Of a DNA stretch of 60,408 nt, positions 2,388-52,933 are shown piece after piece (positions within the stretch are counted from its first letter, which is position 1; every line of letters begins with the position of its first letter). Origin of the DNA: a virus (Duplodnaviria; Caudoviricetes); IMG/VR virus record IMGVR_UViG_3300037245_001069, positions 1-60,408 of that record; one strand, 5' to 3'. The notes under the pieces were generated by a model. It did not search any database. It was not told the DNA's origin and saw nothing but the letters and a program-made list of their open reading frames with translations. Made by a program: the position numbers and the translations under genes.

Positions 2388-3218
2388 TTATAATCTTATC
2401 GCCTTCACAGGACTTTCAGTTTCTAATATATCGGAATCAATTATCTTTATGTAGTTGGCAGTTGTATTAATGTTCTTATGCCCTGCTATCTTCTGCACAC
2501 GCCTTAAATCAACACCATTCTTTATAAGCTGAGTCAAACATGAGTGTCTTAAACTGTGGCTTGATATACGCTTATTTATCCCTGCCTTTTTTGCACTCGA
2601 TTTTACGATATTTTGAATACTTGTTACCGAATAATGATTACCAGTCGCCCCCTCAAATAAATACGAACTAACCCTATATACTTTCCAATATTCACGGATC
2701 AAAGACAAAAGAGAATCATCCAACATAACAATCCTGTCAATCTTACCTTTCGAATTACGGATGTTTATTTTTGAATTTTTACTATCAATATCGTTAATCT
2801 TAACATTAATTGCCTCTGAAACTCTTAACGCACAAGCATACATTAACGCAATAACTGTTCGATGTTTTAGGTTTATCGTAACATCCATCATCGTTTGCAT
2901 TTCTTCAGTTGATAAAATGTCCGGCTGTTTTTGTTCTATCTTTGGCCTTGGAAGAATATCGTGATCGAACTTCCTTCCCTTAACTTCTCGGTAGTACGCC
3001 TTGAAAGAGTTGATTATTGACATTTGCGAGGAACTGCTTATGTTTCTTCTTTTACGACTGACAATATACTTTCTTAAATCTGTCTCATCAATATCATCAT
3101 AGTGCTTATTTAGTCGCAATGCAACGACCTTTATAACTCCTATGTAAGAACTGATAGTCTTATCACTTAGATTTTTAAGTAATAGTTTTTCTTCGAATAA
3201 TTCAATCTTTTCGCTCAT
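2388..3218 (-). CDS. Tyrosine recombinase, integron-integrase-like/XerC-like; likely start MSEKIE at 3218
   Basis: Full catalytic set LRVSE, SKGK, HSLRH, GH, ANY; SAM-like N-terminus; TACATTTG box 4 nt upstream of ATG. Confidence 0.93.
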   Translation of the reverse strand: MSEKIELFEEKLLLKNLSDKTISSYIGVIKVVALRLNKHYDDIDETDLRKYIVSRKRRNISSSSQMSIINSFKAYYREVKGRKFDHDILPRPKIEQKQPDILSTEEMQTMMDVTINLKHRTVIALMYACALRVSEAINVKINDIDSKNSKINIRNSKGKIDRIVMLDDSLLSLIREYWKVYRVSSYLFEGATGNHYSVTSIQNIVKSSAKKAGINKRISSHSLRHSCLTQLIKNGVDLRRVQKIAGHKNINTTANYIKIIDSDILETESPVKAIRL

Positions 3219-3254
3219 GAAACAAATGTACGAATATAAATTTATATACACAAC

Positions 3255-3535: not shown

Positions 3536-3589
3536 TATTTCTTAGTTTTTAATTCGTAAAATAAAATTCCATGCACAGAACGTTAGCGG

Positions 3590-3949
3590 TTATGTGCCAA
3601 AATCTTCATACCATTCTTTAAAGTCTTCAATATGCATTGTTTGGCAGTTGTCATAAACATCTTCTGCTTTTGGCAAACAACCGCTAACAACGTTTTTATG
3701 TAAGCTGTTTTCGCTCGTAGTCTCAGAACTTCCAACCGCACAAATCGGTGGTTTTACTTTCGTAATCATTATTTTTGCCATAGCACGTCCAATATCTTCA
3801 TAAGTCCATTTGTTTTTCAAATAAACTTCTCTATGTTTTTCGTACTCTTTTATACTTTCCTGTATAATTTCTTGTACGTATAATTTTTGTTTCGCTTTTT
3901 CAAGTTTATCCTTTGCAAACTTGATAATTTCTTTATTTTCTTTGTCCAT
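3590..3949 (-). CDS. Cassette 2 hypothetical protein
   Basis: Reads through R'' as NVVSGC. Confidence 0.75.
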   Translation of the reverse strand: MDKENKEIIKFAKDKLEKAKQKLYVQEIIQESIKEYEKHREVYLKNKWTYEDIGRAMAKIMITKVKPPICAVGSSETTSENSLHKNVVSGCLPKAEDVYDNCQTMHIEDFKEWYEDFGT

Positions 3950-4063
3950 CGCTAGTAAATTTAAAGTTATTATCTCGTATCTAATTTCTCGGTTACCGTA
4001 GGGCGGTCAACACATAGCAGCAACGTTGTAAACAAACTAACTCGCTAAGAAGCTCGTTTATTT

Positions 4064-4231
4064 CTACATGTTGCTATTTAAATTTTCAAGATCTTGGATA
4101 AAGCCCGAAAGAATGAACAGCTGGCCGCGTATCGCCTCTCTGTTTATTGGGTTCGATACTTGTTTCTTCAGATCCTCTAAATGGATTCTTTCTTTCTCGT
4201 ATTTTTCAATCAACTTTTCAATTTTATTCAT
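4064..4231 (-). CDS. Cassette 3 small hypothetical protein (55 aa, MNKIEKLIEKYEKE...)
   Basis: Manually translated; lies wholly in the cassette body between 13-bp inverted repeats. Confidence 0.6.
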   Translation of the reverse strand: MNKIEKLIEKYEKERIHLEDLKKQVSNPINREAIRGQLFILSGFIQDLENLNSNM

Positions 4232-4396
4232 GTTCTATGCTTTAAGTTAAAAATTTAAACAGATTCCAACATTCCCGAAATACCGTTTGTTTACAACGGC
4301 CTCGATAACCTTAACCCTACTAACTACCTGACCGCGAGTTAGTCAGTTGACAACAAACGATAAACGGAACTTGATCGGCAGTGGTTAAGTGCCGGG

Positions 4397-4570
4397 TTAA
4401 CCTTTAGAATTGTTCCCAGCCTTTTCTAAAATAGAAATAGTGTAAGTGACAGCATCGATACTCATAGCGATCGGTAGTGCTTTCATATACTCACTTTCTT
4501 TGTTTAAAGTATCCAAATCTTCTTCTAATTTAATTAACACTTTTCTTAATTCTTCAATTGCTTTTTTCAT
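4397..4570 (-). CDS. Cassette 4 small hypothetical protein (57 aa, MKKAIEELRKVLIK...)
   Basis: Manually translated; lies wholly in the attC-like loop. Confidence 0.6.
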   Translation of the reverse strand: MKKAIEELRKVLIKLEEDLDTLNKESEYMKALPIAMSIDAVTYTISILEKAGNNSKG

Positions 4571-4634
4571 ACCTATTTCTTTTTTATAAAATTCTTTCTC
4601 AATCCAGAAACTCCGTTTACACGACCATTATAGT

Positions 4635-4868
4635 TCAGTTTGCTTTTATATTCTTGCCACATATCGGACAGTAATTGTCATCATTGCATTTCACCCTTTC
4701 ATCATGTATCCAGTCATCGCAAACCGAAACAATAACACAAGGTATATTTAATGCTTTAGGCTTTAGCACTTTAATTAATTCCGTTAATTCGTCCTGCTTT
4801 CTTTTAAGAGCATCTTCATACTTTTTAATCTCTTTCCAAATATCATCAACATCTTTTTGTGTTTTCAT
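4635..4868 (-). CDS. Cassette 5 protein: coiled coil plus C-terminal zinc ribbon (YCPICG)
   Basis: Reads through R'' as NIPCVIVS. Confidence 0.75.
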   Translation of the reverse strand: MKTQKDVDDIWKEIKKYEDALKRKQDELTELIKVLKPKALNIPCVIVSVCDDWIHDERVKCNDDNYCPICGKNIKAN

Positions 4869-4906
4869 TTTGTGGTTTAATAATCGAACTAAACTTAGAC
4901 AGAACG

Positions 4907-5257
4907 TTAGCGGTCATTGCCTAAATTATGGCTATGTTCGCTGCAACTATTATACTGTCTGATAAATTCTGCAAAATCTTTTTCTTTTACCTCTATTGAT
5001 AAGTGTCCCCAATTGTGCATCCAATGTAAGAAGTTCAGTGCATTTTCGGTAGTCAACGAACCGCTAACATTTTGTAAATGCAAACCGCTTTTCTCGTGGG
5101 TAGTTTCGCCATCGCTCAATTTTGCGTATAGATAATGATAAGCCAAACTGTGTTTACCGTATGGCATATACAGTACATCTTTACCATCATCATCACATAT
5201 ACATATTTGGTTATTTTCAACCTGCCTAATTTTAATTTTTATTTCCTTTATTTCCAT
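4907..5257 (-). CDS. Cassette 6 hypothetical protein, likely start MEIKEIK
   Basis: Reads through R'' as QNVSGS; stop TAA in the GTTA core. Confidence 0.7.
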   Translation of the reverse strand: MEIKEIKIKIRQVENNQICICDDDGKDVLYMPYGKHSLAYHYLYAKLSDGETTHEKSGLHLQNVSGSLTTENALNFLHWMHNWGHLSIEVKEKDFAEFIRQYNSCSEHSHNLGNDR

Positions 5258-5332
5258 CGCGCGTAAATTTATAATTTTGTAACTCGTTTGTAGTTCGGTT
5301 ATCGCAGGGCGGTCAACACATAGCCGCAACGT

Positions 5333-5569
5333 TTAATGCAATTCGGCATCTATCTTGTGGTCACATGCAGTGCATATAATGTCAGTTATTAGGTATCCAC
5401 AAATTCCGCACTTGCAAGCCGAAACGCTAACAGAGTCTAAATTGAACTTTAAAACTTGTTCAGCTAATTCATCTACTTTCTGTTGAAGTGCATCAAAATC
5501 TTCAGAGGTACTACCAGTATCGAAATACTTGTTTCCTACTTTCCCATATAATTTTCCGTGATATTCCAT
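5333..5569 (-). CDS. Cassette 7 protein with C-terminal Cys cluster
   Basis: Reads through R'' as DSVSVS; stop adjacent to the core. Confidence 0.7.
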   Translation of the reverse strand: MEYHGKLYGKVGNKYFDTGSTSEDFDALQQKVDELAEQVLKFNLDSVSVSACKCGICGYLITDIICTACDHKIDAELH

Positions 5570-5614
5570 GTGTATATTTTTAATTACGTTTTAAAACTCA
5601 ACTTCGCCGGAACG

Positions 5615-5785
5615 TTATGGCTTACCCTCTCCGTGTCTAACTATCTGTGTTTCGTCAATTTCTATCCAGTAGCAATCATTAAGTTCGTCATCCCATTTGT
5701 TATCAAACCATTCAGCAATAGACCATGCAAAATCTTTCATTACCCAGTAATAACCATTTTCTCTTTCCTTCGCTTTTGTATCCAT
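5615..5785 (-). CDS. Cassette 8 small protein (56 aa, MDTKAKERENGYYWV...)
   Basis: Manually translated; stop TAA in the GTTA core at 5614. Confidence 0.65.
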   Translation of the reverse strand: MDTKAKERENGYYWVMKDFAWSIAEWFDNKWDDELNDCYWIEIDETQIVRHGEGKP

Positions 5786-5865
5786 AATTTATCGGTATTT
5801 AAAAGTTTCCACTAAATTTCAAGGGCGGTCAACACATAGCATGAACGTTCAGTTCAATTACCTCA

Positions 5866-6537
5866 CTACCTAAAGCTAGTTCCTTTTAATTCTATAAAGT
5901 TAAACATCTCAGCCATCCGATCTTTTATTATCGGCTCGATATTCAAATCTTCAGGAGAGAAGTTTGACGTAACGTGTGTTAATTTACCTCTCTGAAATAA
6001 TTCATACCGAATCATAAACAGGGAATGAATAATAGAATCTGCCTTGGTGCCATAAATTTTCTCATCCATTTCCTTTCCAAATTCGTCGATGCATAGTCCA
6101 TACGGATCTCCATTTATATTATATCCATACTTCATCACATTCCCATCTTGTTTGTAACTTTCAATTATTTGCTCCAGGGAAACACATAAATAGCCATTCG
6201 AATTAAACGGGAAATAAGTTACAAGGAATTTTCTTATTGAAGCCATTAGAGCCGTTTTACCGCATCCAAACGTTCCGTATAGATAAATACCCTTGTTTAA
6301 GTCCAACCCTTCATTGCCTGTAAAGTGACGTAGCATAGCAGTTAATTTAGGTGCATTCTCTTTCCTTACAATAAACTCTTTGCCGATATATTCAGAAGCA
6401 ACCTTTATAAATTGTTTTTTTATCACTACTTCATTTTCGTCAAAATCAATTAACTTACTAAATCGCGTCGAGTGTTTTAAATCTTGTGTTATCGAATCCC
6501 TCGTCTTTCCTTCTAGTATCTTGCTGATGTGATCCAT
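5866..6537 (-). CDS. DnaC/IstB-like P-loop ATPase (helicase loader)
   Basis: Walker A GTFGCGKT, Walker B LCIDEFG, THVTSN; paired with the initiator. Confidence 0.85.
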   Translation of the reverse strand: MDHISKILEGKTRDSITQDLKHSTRFSKLIDFDENEVVIKKQFIKVASEYIGKEFIVRKENAPKLTAMLRHFTGNEGLDLNKGIYLYGTFGCGKTALMASIRKFLVTYFPFNSNGYLCVSLEQIIESYKQDGNVMKYGYNINGDPYGLCIDEFGKEMDEKIYGTKADSIIHSLFMIRYELFQRGKLTHVTSNFSPEDLNIEPIIKDRMAEMFNFIELKGTSFR

Positions 6538-20306: not shown

Positions 20307-20654
20307 TTAATACCTATTTACTAAGTCTTTTCTAATTTCCCTCAATTCGGCTGGATAATCCTGGCCAGCACAATAAGTAAAACACTTACGACTGAATGAA
20401 TAGAAGATCCTTTCAAGATACCACTTAGAGAAGCCGCCCCGGTTGATAACATTGAACATTCTTTCCTTTGTTTTCGCATGGCCGCCCAATAATTCACAAA
20501 CGTTATCAATTAAATCATTAGTTAACAAATCGTTTATTTTAATCCAGTCGACACCCTCTAAATAAATTGATTGACTCATTAAGTTATATAAACTTAATTG
20601 CTTAACCTTATTTTTCAGGCTGTCAATACTTTTGTAATTTCTTTTTGTATTCAT
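20307..20654 (-). CDS. Hypothetical early protein (YCAGQDYP)
   Basis: ORF preceded by a leader motif. Confidence 0.65.
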   Translation of the reverse strand: MNTKRNYKSIDSLKNKVKQLSLYNLMSQSIYLEGVDWIKINDLLTNDLIDNVCELLGGHAKTKERMFNVINRGGFSKWYLERIFYSFSRKCFTYCAGQDYPAELREIRKDLVNRY

Positions 20655-28929: not shown

Positions 28930-29226
28930 ATGAGTTGTAATTCAATTACAGTTAGCACAAGTGAATGTTCAGAGAACAGCATTCCTAAGATTGCCGGAGT
29001 GTACATCACGAAAGATGGAACTCGGATTTACAAGAAATCAAATGGTGAGTTATTTACCTATCAGAATGATGAAGCTGGATTAAAGGCATTAGTATTGGTC
29101 CAGGAGTACGAATTGTGGAAAGTCTTATTCAAGCCCCAATCACAAAGAATAATAAACATCGTACTTATAACAGGATTAGTTTTAGCTTTGGCTGAGATTA
29201 TTTGGTTTGTGGTTACTAAATATTAA
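28930..29226 (+). CDS. Hypothetical protein with C-terminal TM
   Basis: ORF. Confidence 0.5.
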   Translation: MSCNSITVSTSECSENSIPKIAGVYITKDGTRIYKKSNGELFTYQNDEAGLKALVLVQEYELWKVLFKPQSQRIINIVLITGLVLALAEIIWFVVTKY

Positions 29227-29309
29227 AATTTGCCAATTCAGATTTTATCCTTACATTGCATTTGAATTTTTCATAGTTTAGGTTTATTTGGTTTAGTTGA
29301 ATTAGTTGA

Positions 29310-29340
29310 AAACCGGTTTCAGAGGGAGCCGGTTTTTTTA
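29310..29340 (+). terminator. Intrinsic terminator
   Basis: AACCGGTTTC/GGAGCCGGTT stem plus T7. Confidence 0.7.
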
Positions 29341-29415
29341 TTAAATAATATCTATCGTTTCTGAGATTTCATAGATATTATTAATTTTAATCTTCACTTT
29401 AATTTCTTATCTTTG

Positions 29416-29543
29416 TTTCAGAATAACGGTCGTTGTATGTATTTTTGAACAACAGATAGGTTTAATTATTAACCCATCGTTCCGATAACAGACTATATTC
29501 TAAGTAACTAAGGTTCAATTATATATACAACTTGTTAGCGGTT
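29416..29543 (-). repeat. attC-like site, minus orientation
   Basis: Arms GTTGTATGTATTTTTGAAC / GTTCAATTATATATACAAC between AAC and GTT cores. Confidence 0.75.
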
Positions 29544-29625
29544 CGGTTTATTTCAGCGTAATGGTTTCTTTTTCATTGTGTTGGAATGAATAATTATCTA
29601 ATGTCACCAAGAGAGACTTCCTTTA

Positions 29626-30063
29626 TTAAAAATGGTAGCCTGAAAATACAGCGAATACTATCAGAGAAAGAATTGATAAAGCTAGAAGAACAAAAAAAGC
29701 GTTTAATAGCTTGCCGTAAATCGGTTTTCGGGCGGTTTTTCTTAAAGTGGTGCCGGTGGAATTATCCTTATTCTGTATATATCTTTCATAATCACACCAC
29801 TGATGATACAGAGTGTCTGTTTCGCTATATAAGAAGGCTAACCCACAAAGGATACAAGATCCGCAGAATAATACAGACGATATGAAAGCGATGTACTCAC
29901 ATATATCATTAGCACTGTCAGACTTTAGGCTGATTATCAATCCTAAGATTATTGCGATAACTGATACGCAATTCTTGACCCATCGCAATTCTGCTTCTGT
30001 GCTTTTATCTATTGCATCTGCTAATCTCATTAAGTCAGCGTTGCTTGGTTTATTTTCTTCCAT
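29626..30063 (-). CDS. Cassette-borne membrane protein (3 TM)
   Basis: Antisense to the surrounding phage genes; TM segments. Confidence 0.7.
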   Translation of the reverse strand: MEENKPSNADLMRLADAIDKSTEAELRWVKNCVSVIAIILGLIISLKSDSANDICEYIAFISSVLFCGSCILCGLAFLYSETDTLYHQWCDYERYIQNKDNSTGTTLRKTARKPIYGKLLNAFFVLLALSILSLIVFAVFSGYHF

Positions 30064-30137
30064 AATTTAAAATATTAGTATGAAACGGTTTTGGCTATAC
30101 TTAAAAACAGATTTCCTGCTCGATGCAAGAGCATTTA

Positions 30138-30587
30138 TTATTGGAATGATGACTTATCTACTACTTGAAGCATTATTAAAATATCTTTCCAGTTAGCAAG
30201 GATGAATCCTACTAAAATCCCTAAAATCCCAACTATAAAATCCCTCTTTAGTTTTCTATTTTGAAGATTTAAATTCACCCTTGTTAATTTCGCGTTTTCA
30301 ACATTTAATTCGTCAAATTTCTTCTTTAGATCATCTTGTTCTGATAGATATTCCTGATGCTTTGAATAAGAGCCATGTTTGGACAAAGTAGACAATACAC
30401 TACTACTTAATTTCCACCATAACCCGTCAGGTTCAATCCATCCTTCATCTTCCAAAATAGCCAACAACTTCTCCCATCCAACAACTTCTTTCTTATCTAA
30501 CCATCCTTTTAATGTATTAGACTTTGGATATGATTCATGTAATCTCTTGATGCAGTAATCTGCATATTTTAATTCGTATTCATTCAT
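30138..30587 (-). CDS. Cassette-borne protein: wHTH-like, coiled coil, C-terminal TM
   Basis: Antisense to the surrounding phage genes. Confidence 0.7.
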   Translation of the reverse strand: MNEYELKYADYCIKRLHESYPKSNTLKGWLDKKEVVGWEKLLAILEDEGWIEPDGLWWKLSSSVLSTLSKHGSYSKHQEYLSEQDDLKKKFDELNVENAKLTRVNLNLQNRKLKRDFIVGILGILVGFILANWKDILIMLQVVDKSSFQ

Positions 30588-30624
30588 AATATCTAATTAC
30601 TCTCATTCCCTCCCTCTTAAACTG

Positions 30625-30689
30625 ACCGCTAACGAGTGATATGGTTAGTGATTTCTTGTCATTAACTATTATCACTTATTATTCTGAAA
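30625..30689 (-). repeat. Short attC-like site (probable recipient site)
   Basis: Arms AGTGATATGGTTAGTGA / TCATTAACTATTATCACT with one extra base. Confidence 0.72.
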
Positions 30690-30772: not shown

Positions 30773-31255
30773 ATGATAGATTTTAATAACACATTTAGCA
30801 GTACTGGGACGATGAATACTGAGGATGTGTTGAAAATAGAAAGATATTCAAAAACGCAAATATGTGGTGTTTACTTTCTCGTAAAAAACGAAGAAGTGAT
30901 ATACGTTGGCAAATCTATTGATTTGCTTACAAGAGTTGTGTCGCACGTAAAAACTAAAGATTTTGACTCCTTCGCGTTAATCCAATGTGATGAGCACATG
31001 CTTGACTTTGAGGAAACGAAATACATATTACATTACAGACCGATCCAAAACAAAAGCGTTGGAGACTATGAGTACATTGGGTTATTTGGGTGGTATTCAA
31101 GATGCAAGCTGATATACGAATTGAAGTTGAATGATAATCAAATACCAGAATTGGATAGGCACTTACGAATAATCAGTGAAACTATTAATTGTTTCCGATA
31201 TAAACTATACAAAGTAGATGATGTTCAAGCATTAAAGATGAAATTATTTAAATAA
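30773..31255 (+). CDS. GIY-YIG nuclease-domain protein
   Basis: GVYFL...IYVGKS..L..R...H, E...I....P..N. Confidence 0.8.
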   Translation: MIDFNNTFSSTGTMNTEDVLKIERYSKTQICGVYFLVKNEEVIYVGKSIDLLTRVVSHVKTKDFDSFALIQCDEHMLDFEETKYILHYRPIQNKSVGDYEYIGLFGWYSRCKLIYELKLNDNQIPELDRHLRIISETINCFRYKLYKVDDVQALKMKLFK

Positions 31256-50900: not shown

Positions 50901-51419
50901 GCAGCTTTCAATATTGGATTAAGTACAGCACAGGCGATAATAGGTATTTGGGCTCAGGTGCCTAAATTTGACTTTGGTATTTCAGCAGGAATATTAACCG
51001 GAGTAGTTGGGGCTATTGGAGCAGCACAATTAGCAGCAGTATTAGCGAAGCCACTTCCATTCTTCGCTGAAGGTGTTAAGAACTTTGAGGGTGGCCCTGC
51101 AATAGTAGGAGATAAAAAAGGAAACCCAACAAAAGCAGGTGGTTCAGAATTAGGAATATTACCAGGAGGTCAAATGTTTATGACTCCAAGTACTCCTACT
51201 GTAATGAATTTACCTGCCAGAACAGATATTATTCCGAATGACATGGTTGCAAGTACATTGGCAAATGAAGCCATGACAAGCACTTACAACATGATTGATA
51301 TGTCATCTACGAACAGCCATTTAAAGAGGATAGACAAGAATACGAGCGAATCAACAACATACGAAGGAAATTATAAAATAGTGCGGAGAAAAGGCTTCGT
51401 TGGACGTTACAGGATATGA
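47949..51419 (+). CDS. Tail tape measure protein
   Basis: 1156 aa, helical; ALEQMISKGKV..EELRRQLGERLPGA tape-measure motif. Confidence 0.92.
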   Translation: MASGRIEKNDIITQAAINTVAELAAEIAKVAKETEELKTILKDAKSLGAVADATKKTTKNTEKLTTATKEFQSIIGLGKQKLKAETDQRVTAAKKVADADKKATDAKKKNTKEWIAAAKRVSVFEKKAAREKLASDKKIATGIKLKIAIQKIDKGSIDRLRAANKILANRMKELNVLIPIQRKQYDRLADSMQRNSNKIREMNIATKKQSSRFGAMMKSVARAALMYIGITKVISFFTTTLFNLTKKLSALEFAMKTVIRDSNELLVTQRFLSQTAANYGQDIVALTERYIKFRAAAQQSNLTSVETMDIFDSMAKAAGVLGLKTDEVNGVFLALEQMISKGKVTTEELRRQLGERLPGAMGIMADSIGVTISELDKMLKAGTVLSAEVLPNFAKAVEIAYGIETITKIENLIAVQGRLTTSWKEFVDELSADSTYISAIKNWSNMFNRFRIVWDDNSRLLEKYQLMTTKTGKAVNSFVEEADKMKFSQLDNADTADAFIKKLDEEGLTLEHATKVWNEYFEVREATSKLDINKFELPKAFDFGDAKSVLDTAEEDLDSFGKLAKGSLRDAFVLDSNVLTMGFESYKKYLQSLVGAARDETSKAKESLDLFGAAKMTLSELDDKLANTTDENEKKRLRDLFKNENNKNRILFQNAENRLAFEIEINNRLADLNKGKKSKGGKDETLTLLKSRQALELEQLKLFLKEKLLAFEGSDDELKQQQFDAGREIIVQRLEDLEEQRTAVGAMTKKELADASLSDVERANIKTKTSNTLLDIEKEYTILEREIIENAIAWKKNAWKDESKDAEAIRNERLDAIFTNANKLKAKAAEDANNDFLDTKRRGKDKIRTMWGLAVAQLSIEHATAIEIQKLYEENTAAWLEQEDIKDNLRRVLAEKAISFEKKLSDEKINELKRVLDFANESVNAAFNIQQQFSDNQLERARNRFERETQLAGDSEAAKLVAKRKFEKEERVIAKRQAKAAKAQAAFNIGLSTAQAIIGIWAQVPKFDFGISAGILTGVVGAIGAAQLAAVLAKPLPFFAEGVKNFEGGPAIVGDKKGNPTKAGGSELGILPGGQMFMTPSTPTVMNLPARTDIIPNDMVASTLANEAMTSTYNMIDMSSTNSHLKRIDKNTSESTTYEGNYKIVRRKGFVGRYRI

Positions 51420-52933
51420 TATATAGCTATAACACATTAGGATTTTACGAAACTAAAGGAAATCGTCAATATGACAATACCGGAAATATTCGAGTATTGC
51501 ATCATTTTGAAACGAATAAGATTCCGGCATTTCAAGTAATTGTATTGGGAACTATCATTTCTGCCAGTTATAAGTTATTTGATATTGATGACGTACAAAT
51601 AGCAACCGGTTCCGTGGCTGTTGAGAATGCAGTCAGAGAAGATTCAACTGTTTATAGCAGATTGATATTTCTTGGCACCACTTTAGCGAGTAAGGATGAT
51701 GGTTTCTATTATATGGAGATTACCTATACTAATAGTGGTTCTTATTCTGGATATTCAGCTTTAGGTCAAACTTCAAGAGATTGGATAGGCATGACTTCTG
51801 CTCCAAATGGAAATGTATATGCTACTGTAGATGGTGGCGACATTTACATGCAGACTGGCGGTACAGGTAATTTTATAGCATTATCCCAGACTTCAAGAGA
51901 TTGGAGGCAAATAGCAGCAGCCCCGAATGGTAATATTTATGCCGTTGTGTCGAGTGGAGATATTTACATGCAGACCGGAGGTACTGGAAACTTCATAGCA
52001 CTATCTCAGTCTACAAGAAACTGGTACGGAATAACCGTAGCCGCCAATGGGAATGCTTATGCTAGTGTCAATACCGGAGATATTTATATGCAAACTGGCG
52101 GTACAGGGGCTTTCGTTGCACTATCTCAAACTACAAGGTTATGGAGAGGGATGACAGTCGCTAATGGTAATGTATATGCGTGTACGACTCTTGGTGATAT
52201 TTATATGCAGACTGGTGGTGCCGATGATTTTGAGGCACTACTTCAAACTACAAGATTGTGGCATGGCATGGCAGCAGCGTCAAACGGAGATGTTTATGCT
52301 ATTGTTCTTGGCGGTGAAACATACGTTCAGAGGAATGGTACAGGGCAATTTGTTTCAATCGATGATCAAACAGAATTATGGAGAGATATAACTGTAGATG
52401 CAGATGATAGTATTTATTCATGTGTTTATGGAGAAGATATTTACGAACAAACATTATCCGCAGGAGGTGATAATTTAGCATACACCGATGTATTTTGTTG
52501 GCAAACTGATGTTTCAGAATACCTTAAAATTGAAGCCACCACTTCAAATATGGTTATCGGTGGATTCGAGATGAACATGACAGGCTTCACTTATTTGGTT
52601 TATTTGGAGGTTAAGGAAAATGGGTTTACTGAGGAATATCCCATAGAAGAAGAAGGCAAGTCTAAAACTTTCGGTGATGTAGGTTATTTCACTTCACGAA
52701 ATCATGAGCAACAGTTTGAAATTACCGGATATCGGAAAACGTTAGGATTCTTAGCTGGACTCAGAACAGTACACACAAACGGTACAGTGACCTTAACTTA
52801 CAAGAATGATATCAGCGAAATATACGACATTGAATCGCCGGATGCGGCACAGAGTTACACTTATAGCGACATCCTTATTATAAATTGGAAGTTTAAATTG
52901 GTTGATTATTTACAAACTACCAATAAAGTATAG
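51416..52933 (+). CDS. Distal-tail-position protein with inserted beta-propeller repeats
   Basis: About six 41-aa repeats ALSQT.R.W......NGN.YA....GDIYMQTGGTG.F. Confidence 0.7.
   Translation: MIYSYNTLGFYETKGNRQYDNTGNIRVLHHFETNKIPAFQVIVLGTIISASYKLFDIDDVQIATGSVAVENAVREDSTVYSRLIFLGTTLASKDDGFYYMEITYTNSGSYSGYSALGQTSRDWIGMTSAPNGNVYATVDGGDIYMQTGGTGNFIALSQTSRDWRQIAAAPNGNIYAVVSSGDIYMQTGGTGNFIALSQSTRNWYGITVAANGNAYASVNTGDIYMQTGGTGAFVALSQTTRLWRGMTVANGNVYACTTLGDIYMQTGGADDFEALLQTTRLWHGMAAASNGDVYAIVLGGETYVQRNGTGQFVSIDDQTELWRDITVDADDSIYSCVYGEDIYEQTLSAGGDNLAYTDVFCWQTDVSEYLKIEATTSNMVIGGFEMNMTGFTYLVYLEVKENGFTEEYPIEEEGKSKTFGDVGYFTSRNHEQQFEITGYRKTLGFLAGLRTVHTNGTVTLTYKNDISEIYDIESPDAAQSYTYSDILIINWKFKLVDYLQTTNKV

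What the first reader, a model, noticed from the sequence alone, without database searches (positions are those of the whole stretch)
29416..30689. Second, remote attC-bounded insertion with conventional, host-like cassette genes
Seen: two well-paired hairpin sites (29416-29543 and 30625-30689) bracket two minus-strand membrane-protein ORFs within a plus-strand region. Inner ends match each other (GTTAGCGGT/ACCGCTAAC) and outer ends match each other (TTTCAGAATAA/TTATTCTGAAA), as expected if a circle inserted into a pre-existing solo site. The minus-strand right end ACGACC-GTT equals ACGACC-ATT at 4621 in the main array. A possible eroded right arm (ATAGCCAAAACC-GTT, minus strand, about 30084-30098) lies between the two genes. 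Here the genes are sense to the att polarity. Inference: the same recombinase captured host-type cassettes, possibly for superinfection exclusion or defence, linking phage and host cassette pools.
Basis: partly seen in the sequence, partly recalled or inferred. Interest (0 to 1): 0.75.

Follow-up and report, generated by a model that had tools for sequence, protein, structure and literature searches.

The report
Integron-type gene cassette inside a phage
A marine phage carries a 1.2-kb two-gene insert that has the boundaries and folded recombination site of the mobile gene cassettes found in arrays in Bacteroidota bacteria, so phages and their hosts appear to share one pool of such cassettes.

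Summary
Nested inverted repeats alone mean little: the genome holds 19 such pairs and shuffles average 26. Independent evidence supports the core reading. ORF1 (29626-30063, minus) has homologues in 5 of 5 bacterial loci, each inside a cassette whose first 9 bases are the reverse complement of the core of the folded site after the gene. Covariance models built only from sites outside this window rank the left site (29419-29542, minus strand) first in the phage (23.4 bits, then 28.5 bits, E about 3e-4). A model-type hit combined with both matching repeat pairs occurred in 0 of 1000 shuffled genomes. A metagenome cassette with an ORF1 homologue shares both cassette ends (14 of 15 bases each). 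The phage recombinase (2388-3251) is 42% identical to one beside a bacterial array but lacks the integron-integrase extra domain. Not supported: the right site as a family member, the "eroded arm", the ACGACC link, and any function. No empty site or circle was seen.

The parts
29416..29542 (-). Site B: the cassette's own attC-type site, read on the minus strand. It consists of the core ACCGCTAAC (29542->29534), an imperfect stem (29531-29513 with 29450-29432), the spacer GACC, then GTTATTCTGAAA (29427->29416).
   Evidence: Top hit of models R1 (23.4 bits, E 0.018) and R2 (28.5 bits, E 3e-4) in the whole window on both strands. Top two-arm matrix score at 22.5 bits. Stem reported (I3).
29427..30632 (-). 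Inferred cassette of 1206 bp under the integron convention (cut between G and TT at both ends); GC 0.337 against 0.355 for the genome.
   Evidence: Both junctions read C|GTTA on the minus strand. The first 15 bases and the last 15 bases before and including the core each match the L108 cassette at 14 of 15 positions.
30138..30587 (-). ORF2, 149 aa: a small helical N-terminal domain, a coiled coil and a C-terminal membrane anchor. It belongs to a family of about 44 cluster representatives; function unknown.
   Evidence: No family hit in Pfam or PADLOC; PHROGs and NCBIfam gave only weak sub-threshold hits (PHROGs E >= 0.024; TIGR04211 at 22.4 bits against a cut-off of 65).
29626..30063 (-). ORF1, 145 aa: a small protein with three predicted membrane helices. 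It belongs to a family that is cassette-borne in Bacteroidota.
30625..30689 (-). Site A: the hairpin at the cassette's 5' end. On the minus strand it reads TTTCAGAATAA-T, then a stem-loop (30676-30635), then C-GTTAGCGGT. It is inferred to be the recipient site.
   Evidence: Fold z -3.5 and -2.2. Its outer arm pairs with the end of site B. It is NOT recognised by R1, R2 or the matrices.
30064..30137 (-).
   Evidence: The arm scores 5.7 bits, which is not significant.
2388..3251 (-). Tyrosine recombinase, 287 aa, XerA-like. It lacks the integron-integrase extra domain and is the candidate enzyme.
   Evidence: Relatives lie next to attC-type hits.

Best explanation
Positions 29427-30632 are an integron-type gene cassette of 1206 bp, read on the minus strand. 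It carries ORF2 and then ORF1, and it ends in its own folded recombination site, site B. That site belongs to a family found between genes in cassette arrays of Flavobacteriia and Prolixibacteraceae.

The cassette most likely entered the phage as a circle. Recombination would have taken place at the G|TT of its site and the G|TT of a pre-existing intergenic hairpin, site A. This left each site with the other's 3' core, so the cassette's first 9 bases pair with the core of site B, and the 11 bases after site B pair with the 5' arm of site A.

The likely enzyme is the phage's own XerA-like tyrosine recombinase (2388-3251) or a host homologue.

Shown: the sequence geometry, the family membership of site B, the cassette-borne nature of ORF1's family, and the kinship of the recombinase to array-adjacent recombinases. 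Inferred: the circle intermediate, site A as a former solo site, which enzyme acted, and the direction of transfer. The cargo is two small membrane proteins of unknown function. A role in exclusion or abortive infection is only a guess.
For: (1) Model R1 was built from 21 bacterial sites. With filters off it ranks 29542->29419 (minus) first in 60,408 bases x 2 strands, at 23.4 bits and E 0.018. The iterated model R2 (32 sites, none from this window) gives 28.5 bits and E 3e-4.

(2) In L006, 12 successive cassettes each start with a 9-mer that is the reverse complement of the core of their own site. The same holds around the ORF1 homologue in L002, L003, L004 and L005 (5 of 5 bacterial loci). 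With 8-mers it holds in 3 of 5 metagenome loci; the other two contigs end inside the gene.

(3) The phage shows the same hallmark. In 1000 shuffled genomes, a matrix hit of 20 bits or more together with its own 9-mer complement occurred in 35. Adding the outer 11-mer brought this to 0.

(4) The L108 cassette (ORF1 homologue, 35% identity over 94 aligned residues, E 6e-19) begins GTTAGCGGTAAGTTT and has ...AAACCGTACCGCTAAC before its site. Each end matches the phage at 14 of 15 bases.

(5) GTTAGCGG occurs 6 times in the phage against 0.54 expected (0 of 100 shuffles reach 6). Four of these copies lie within about 1.8 kb upstream of the recombinase gene, at 3582-5068.

(6) The recombinase is 42% identical (2e-64) to the 373-aa recombinase directly upstream of the MAG array. 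Recombinases of this type lie next to R2 hits of 53-90 bits in 3 of 3 further bacterial genomes. Phage contigs with 57-70% identical recombinases carry 3 R1 hits each just upstream.

(7) The computed empty site and circle junction fold far better than the present sites (z about -7 and -4, against -1 to -2.5). This follows from the repeats and is not independent evidence.
Against: Site A is not recognised by either model at E <= 10. It scores 3.7 bits on the two-arm matrices and -2.8 bits on the 3' arm, and its 5' core ends in AAT rather than the invariant AAC.

The matrix score of site B alone (22.5 bits) is reached by 249 of 1000 shuffled genomes. Nested repeats alone are common.

The second-best model hit (20442-20510) lies inside an ORF. 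If it is false, the model E-values are optimistic.

No empty allele, circle or close relative was found. The one run that holds the DNA is probably the source, it is kept only as contigs, and it shows only the filled form.

Model hits in the recombinase-proximal region of this phage are weak, at 9-12 bits. R1 does not detect the L108 site at E <= 1.

No TAnnTTTG motif lies on the minus strand between ORF2 and 30772.

The ORF2 family was found in 1 of 401 sampled Bacteroidota genomes, and there it had no significant site hits.
Confidence: 0.7

Rival explanations
1. Block capture. The phage picked up a ready-made piece of a bacterial array (site, cassette, site) by illegitimate or homologous recombination. 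No site-specific insertion ever happened in the phage.
For: Qi et al. 2023 (PMC9892861, section 3.4 read) propose such routes for attC clusters in phages. Site A is not a family-typical site. No empty site is known.
Against: The outer 11-base arms are the outermost matching bases, and they pair with each other. That is what insertion into a self-paired solo hairpin gives, and it is not expected for an arbitrary slice of an array. The phage has its own recombinase of the array-associated type, and the same 8-mer core is enriched next to it.
Confidence: 0.15
2. An ordinary moron. This would be a two-gene opposite-strand insert with its own terminators, where the inverted repeats and the model hit are chance.
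For: Nested repeats of this size are common by chance. The matrix score of site B is matched in 249 of 1000 shuffles. Terminator-like hairpins lie after both genes.
Against: The joint event occurred in 0 of 1000 shuffles. ORF1 homologues are cassette-borne in 5 of 5 bacterial loci. L108 shares both cassette ends at 14 of 15 bases each.
Confidence: 0.07
3. A non-autonomous transposon bounded by 11-bp terminal inverted repeats and moved by a transposase encoded elsewhere.
For: Perfect 11-bp terminal inverted repeats lie at 29416-29426 and 30679-30689.
Against: The five bases on either side differ (CTTTG against TCTTT), so there is no target-site duplication. No transposase was seen in the insert. 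No other copy lies in the phage. The inner repeat and the attC-type architecture go unexplained.
Confidence: 0.03

Closest known systems
Integron gene cassettes and attC sites (class 1 and sedentary chromosomal integrons)
   Same: The site is a folded imperfect palindrome with an outer core pair (...AAC / GTT...) and an inner stem. Exchange occurs at G|TT. The first bases of a cassette are complementary to the core of its own site. Genes lie in sense to the site. These are tandem arrays of short ORFs, and a group II intron is inserted at a site in L002.
   Different: The associated recombinases lack the IntI-specific domain. The 3' cores GTTAGCG and GTTATTC do not fit GTTRRRY. This cassette sits alone, 26 kb from the recombinase, in a phage. 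The attC features of canonical integrons are recalled from general knowledge plus the passages read.
attC clusters (CALINs) in phage genomes, Qi et al. 2023, PMC9892861
   Same: attC sites and cassettes occur in temperate and virulent phages, including a Polaribacter phage (section 3.4 read).
   Different: Those sites were found with IntegronFinder and tested with IntI1. That section does not report a phage-encoded recombinase of the array-associated XerA-like type, a swapped-core footprint of insertion into a solo hairpin, or a cassette lineage shared with bacterial arrays. Its supplements could not be seen.
Phage morons
   Same: This is a small opposite-strand insert between a terminator and a promoter of the flanking phage genes.
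   Different: It is bounded by recombination-site hairpins with matched cores, and the cargo family is cassette-borne in bacteria.
XerA / Xer recombinases and the elements that use them
   Same: The best solved relatives of the phage recombinase are archaeal XerA-type proteins (4a8e at 5e-32 and 5hxy at 8e-30).
   Different: Xer sites are double-stranded dif-like cores. Here the associated sites are long hairpins with cassette-specific cores, which is the integron logic.

Membership tests
Integron-type gene cassette with attC | Outer inverted cores ending ...AAC and starting GTT... | tested here: met
   Site B has ACCGCTAAC ... GTT. AAC/GTT is invariant in 21 of 21 training sites. Site A has AAT ... 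GTT, so only site B meets the feature fully.
Integron-type gene cassette with attC | Inner imperfect stem with unequal spacers to the cores | tested here: met
   Site B has a 19-nt, 84% complementary stem. The model aligns it to helix 2, which shows compensatory changes in 4 of 6 pairs across the 21 sites.
Integron-type gene cassette with attC | First bases of the cassette are complementary to the core of its own site | tested here: met
   A perfect 9-base match between 30633->30625 and 29542->29534. The same holds in 12 successive cassettes of L006. Joint chance: 35 of 1000 shuffles, and 0 of 1000 with the outer pair added.
Integron-type gene cassette with attC | Canonical 3' core GTTRRRY | tested here: not met
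   GTTAGCG and GTTATTC do not fit. Many of the bacterial sites do not fit either. The consensus itself is recalled and quoted.
Integron-type gene cassette with attC | Excision as a circle and re-insertion by the recombinase | not testable with these tools
   Only contigs of one run were available, and they showed no joint.
Integron-type gene cassette with attC | Detection by IntegronFinder or HattCI attC models | not tested
   These programs were not on hand. Rfam was not searched.
Bacteroidota-type array site (models R1 and R2 built here) | Significant match to the covariance model | tested here: met
   Site B scores 23.4 bits (E 0.018) and 28.5 bits (E 3e-4), rank 1 both times. Site A has no hit at E <= 10, so it is not a member by this test.
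Integron integrase (IntI) | Tyrosine recombinase catalytic domain | tested here: met
   PF00589 at 1.5e-39 and PF13495 at 2.5e-12.
Integron integrase (IntI) | IntI-specific additional domain around patch III | tested here: not met
   Against IntI4 (2a3v), residues 188-204 of the phage protein (17 aa) stand where the chain has residues 180-239 (60 aa). TIGR02249 matches the phage protein in two stretches, the best being residues 17-191 on model positions 3-179, with 152 bits against a cut-off of 265. Its bacterial relatives match only model positions about 2-180 and 240-315.
Integron integrase (IntI) | Gene adjacent to the cassette array | tested here: inconclusive
   In this phage only weak hits of 9-12 bits and repeat families lie next to it. 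The feature is clear in relatives.
Transposon with terminal inverted repeats | Target-site duplication and a transposase or further copies | tested here: not met
   The flanks differ, there is no transposase domain, and there is a single copy in the genome.

The most novel reading that the evidence does not exclude
Bacteroidota and their phages run an integron-like cassette system whose recombinase is XerA-like and lacks the IntI extra domain (the I2 helix region). Current accounts treat that domain as the innovation that made hairpin recombination possible. This system would therefore be an independent or ancestral route to cassette capture. Phages would be active members of the cassette pool, able to take cassettes into solo hairpins anywhere in their genome, not only next to the recombinase gene.
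Probability: 0.35. Interest if true: 0.85.

Novelty: new variant of a known kind. Interest (0 to 1): 0.66.

Why it matters
Integron cassettes are a main route by which bacteria trade small adaptive genes. Phages have only recently been shown to carry attC sites (PMC9892861).

This locus gives a concrete footprint of one cassette insertion in a phage. It comes with a cassette lineage that is also found in bacterial arrays, and with a phage-encoded recombinase of the type that sits beside those arrays.

Two things would follow if the recombinase is the active enzyme. First, a phage could shuttle and re-insert host cassettes by itself. Second, hairpin-site cassette recombination would not need the IntI-specific domain, which bears on how integrons arose (abstract of PMC7790495 seen in the listing). 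Arrays of this kind would also be filed as integrase-less clusters by tools that require that domain, so their extent in Bacteroidota may be underestimated.

Tried and rejected
Searches for an empty site or close relatives led nowhere.
- IMG/VR scans with ORF2, ORF1 and two flank proteins found no relative.
- The methylase upstream gave only relatives of modest overall identity (35-51% in the 50 or so best-ranked loci; higher figures lower in the list are for single best segments).
- The terminase gave two relatives. One is a complete 57.5-kb phage that has no homologue of the flank genes and no match to the recombinase.
- The GenBank phage collection matched only a 250-base stretch of the DUF7768 gene.

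Reads gave no test. One run holds the DNA. It is probably the source and is kept as contigs. Only the filled form was seen, with no joint, and two short unrelated contigs touch the region. This is no evidence for or against excision.

Structure gave nothing usable. The single-sequence AlphaFold2 model of ORF2 had mean pLDDT 60 and was not used for a fold search.

Function searches gave only weak leads.
- PADLOC had no hit for either ORF.
- Pfam gave only weak scattered hits: Saf_2TM at 0.077 and DUF4231 at 0.12, each in 1 of 5 ORF1-family members, and HEPN-like_int at 0.0019 in 1 of 10 ORF2-family members.
- Atlas neighbours are unnamed clusters, or a cluster auto-named DUF4231 at a score of 0.94.
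- All of these are leads only.

Other dead ends.
- RNAalifold found no consensus structure on A2, so the structure was given by hand and checked by pair counts.
- The ORF2-family locus in G149 shows no significant site hit.
- The idea that ORF2 and ORF1 are two cassettes with an eroded site between them was rejected. The internal arm is not significant. The core after ORF1 pairs with the bases before ORF2, and L108 shows that this core pair belongs to the ORF1 lineage.
- Plus-strand polarity for the sites was rejected. Site B scores -5.4 bits on the plus strand against 22.5 on the minus.
- Literature searches turned up no paper on arrays with XerA-like recombinases in Bacteroidota. This covers only the held library, and the supplements of PMC9892861 and others were closed and may list such cases.

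Full report
WHAT THE WINDOW IS. The window is a complete 60,408-base virus record with 80-base direct terminal repeats. It carries a small terminase-like gene, a large terminase and structural genes on the plus strand from about 23 kb. A block of small minus-strand genes runs from 2 to 23 kb, and it includes RecT, a nuclease and a 287-aa tyrosine recombinase at 2388-3251. A Bacteroidota host is likely but was not tested directly. The grounds are homologues of the cargo and of the recombinase in Bacteroidota, a weak DNA match to Cellulophaga phages, and TAnnTTTG motifs before plus-strand genes (the motif itself is recalled).

THE OBSERVATION. Two minus-strand ORFs interrupt the plus-strand block: ORF2 at 30138-30587 and ORF1 at 29626-30063.
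- The right site is a good hairpin (z -3.5 and -2.2).
- The left site as delimited folds no better than shuffles (z about -1), though it contains a 19-nt, 84% stem.
- A genome-wide count shows that nested 11+9 repeats within these distances are ordinary: 19 in the real sequence and a mean of 26 in 200 dinucleotide shuffles. The pattern by itself proves nothing.
- The ACGACC match is an 11-copy hexamer.
- The 'eroded arm' scores at a level reached by 0.28% of all positions.

WHERE THE CARGO OCCURS ELSEWHERE. ORF1 has four homologues in the 5.8-billion-protein set (46-53% identity). It has five loci in species-representative genomes: two on one contig of a Prolixibacteraceae MAG, plus Polaribacter, Aestuariibaculum and Mariniflexile.
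- L006 is a textbook array. Twelve successive short cassettes are separated by sites of about 137 nt.
- In every one of those twelve, the first 9 bases (GTT plus six) are the reverse complement of the 9 bases (six plus AAC) that open the site after the gene.
- The same holds around the ORF1 homologue in all five bacterial loci.
- The MAG array carries 7 copies of its site and a repeated element ending exactly at a site in L002. I read that element as a group II intron. This is unverified: the reading comes from the repeat pattern and a 417-aa ORF that I did not scan.
- Metagenome contigs add three more cases with 8-mers (L106, L107, L108). Two further contigs end inside the gene and cannot be judged.

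IS THE LEFT SITE ONE OF THESE? I aligned 21 bacterial sites (A2). RNAalifold gave no structure. I therefore wrote in the two helices that can be read off the alignment and checked them.
- 89% of cells are paired, against 80% in shuffles (0 of 500 shuffles as high).
- 4 of 6 inner pairs show changes on both sides.
- Sliding the partner drops pairing to 20-41%.

The resulting model R1 was run without filters on both strands of the phage. It puts 29542->29419, on the minus strand, first at 23.4 bits and E 0.018. A second model, R2, was built from 32 hits in bacterial, metagenome and other phage loci, none of them from this window. R2 raises this to 28.5 bits and E 3e-4, again rank 1. The calibrations are short, so the E-values are rough.

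An independent two-arm matrix score also ranks the site first at 22.5 bits, with the next best at 18.0. However, 249 of 1000 shuffled genomes reach 22.5 somewhere. The decisive figure is therefore the joint one. A hit of 20 bits or more whose own 9-base core has its complement 150-4000 bases upstream occurs in 35 of 1000 shuffles. With the outer 11-base match added it occurs in 0 of 1000. The real genome has exactly one such hit, and it is this one.

THE BOUNDARIES ARE CORROBORATED. L108 is a 1208-base metagenome contig holding an ORF1 homologue (35% identity over 94 aligned residues, E 6e-19). Its cassette starts with the same 9-mer, and 14 of the first 15 bases agree with the phage. The 15 bases ending in the core before its site also agree at 14 of 15. 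R1 does not detect the L108 site at E <= 1, so the inner parts have diverged.

This shows that the core pair belongs to the ORF1 cassette lineage, and that ORF2 lies inside that cassette in the phage. ORF2 is not an orphan. A full HMMER scan finds 44 cluster representatives at E <= 0.001, 10 of them at <= 1e-10. Only 1 of 401 sampled Bacteroidota genomes has a match, and there it is without a significant site nearby.

THE RIGHT SITE. Read on the minus strand, the right site is an 11-base arm, a hairpin, then C and the cassette's first bases. The left site ends with GACC, then G, then 11 bases that pair with that arm. Both junctions read C|GTTA. This is what exchange at G|TT between a circle and a self-paired hairpin would leave. 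The computed reunited sites fold at z about -7 and -4, which follows from the repeats.

The right site is not a recognisable member of the family, however. There is no model hit at E <= 10. It scores 3.7 bits on the matrices and -2.8 on the 3' arm. It has AAT where all 21 training sites have AAC, and only one base between the stem and GTT. Its status as a former solo site rests on geometry alone.

THE ENZYME. The recombinase matches archaeal XerA-type structures best. Against the solved integron integrase IntI4 it has 17 residues where the chain has 60, so the IntI-specific domain is absent. It scores 152 bits against the 265-bit cut-off of TIGR02249.
- It is 42% identical to a 373-aa recombinase that ends 90 bases before the first cassette of the MAG array.
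- None of the four bacterial genomes with arrays has a match above the IntI cut-off (0 of 1 and 0 of 3).
- Their best matches all skip model positions 180-239.
- In 3 of 3 of the further genomes, such a gene lies beside R2 hits of 53-90 bits.
- Two IMG/VR contigs whose recombinases are 70% and 57% identical to the phage's carry three R1 hits each. The hits lie just upstream, on the opposite strand.

In this phage the region next to the recombinase has repeat families and a 13-base inverted repeat around a small ORF at 4025/4288. It also holds four of the six copies of GTTAGCGG (0.54 expected). Model hits there are weak, at 9-12 bits. The link between this enzyme and the remote cassette is therefore an inference.

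WHAT IS KNOWN. Qi et al. 2023 reported integrons and 17 integrase-less attC clusters in phages, including a Polaribacter phage. They showed that five of six phage sites recombine with IntI1 (abstract and section 3.4 read). The IntegronFinder 2.0 paper reports only In0 elements and one complete integron (Salinibacter) in Bacteroidetes (passages read). The archaeal integron paper restates that the additional domain defines IntI (passages read).

An attC-type cassette in a phage is thus a known kind of thing. Three things look new here: the footprint of insertion into a solo hairpin far from the recombinase, the shared lineage with bacterial cassettes, and the association of such arrays with recombinases that lack the IntI domain. 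Five literature searches found no description of the last point.

VERDICT. The finding is real and its core interpretation holds. It is a single integron-type cassette of a Bacteroidota lineage sitting alone in a phage genome. The mechanism of entry, the enzyme and the function of the two membrane proteins are inferred or unknown.

Noticed in passing
window 20442-20510 (+): This is the second-best hit of both site models (22.2 and 23.9 bits, E 0.03 and 0.003). It is a 69-nt element whose own cores GTTGATAAC / GTTATCAA pair with each other. It lies inside the minus-strand ORF 20307-20654. It is either a solo site within a gene or a false positive that warns about the E-values.
   Followed up: partly
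window 3550-5870: The region upstream of the recombinase gene holds several repeats. There are three copies of a 39-nt repeat ending ...AAC|GTT (3989, 5295, 5811). There are two copies of ACAGAACGTTAGCGGT (3574, 4899), with inverted partners at 3681 and 5061 inside ORF ends. A 13-base inverted repeat (4025/4288) flanks a small ORF. Polarity is on the plus strand, opposite to the genes.
   Followed up: partly
L003 4672-5793; L112-L114; L097, L100: Array-adjacent recombinases in four Bacteroidota genomes and two phage contigs all lack the IntI extra domain. None of the four genomes has a match above the integron-integrase cut-off.
   Followed up: partly
L002 3900-5880 and 9100-11040; L003 8629-10702: In the Prolixibacteraceae MAG, a repeated element of about 2 kb ends exactly at an array site; I guess it is a group II intron. 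An IS91-family transposase gene overlaps a 305-aa tyrosine recombinase gene, and this pair recurs on several contigs.
   Followed up: no
window 30773-31255 (+): The gene right of the insert has a weak GIY-YIG nuclease N-terminus (Pfam 0.0024) and matches PADLOC candidate family PDC-S14 (2.7e-9). It may be a free-standing homing-type nuclease beside the insertion.
   Followed up: no
window 51757-52392: Four to five tandem copies of a unit of about 120 nt (61-71% alike) lie inside the 505-aa ORF 51416-52933, giving a repetitive 40-residue module in a probable tail or fibre protein.
   Followed up: no
window 29307-29338 and 29344-29382: Just left of the insert there is a plus-strand terminator-like hairpin with a T run after gene 28930-29226, followed by a perfect 12-base inverted repeat (29344-29355 / 29371-29382).
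   Followed up: no
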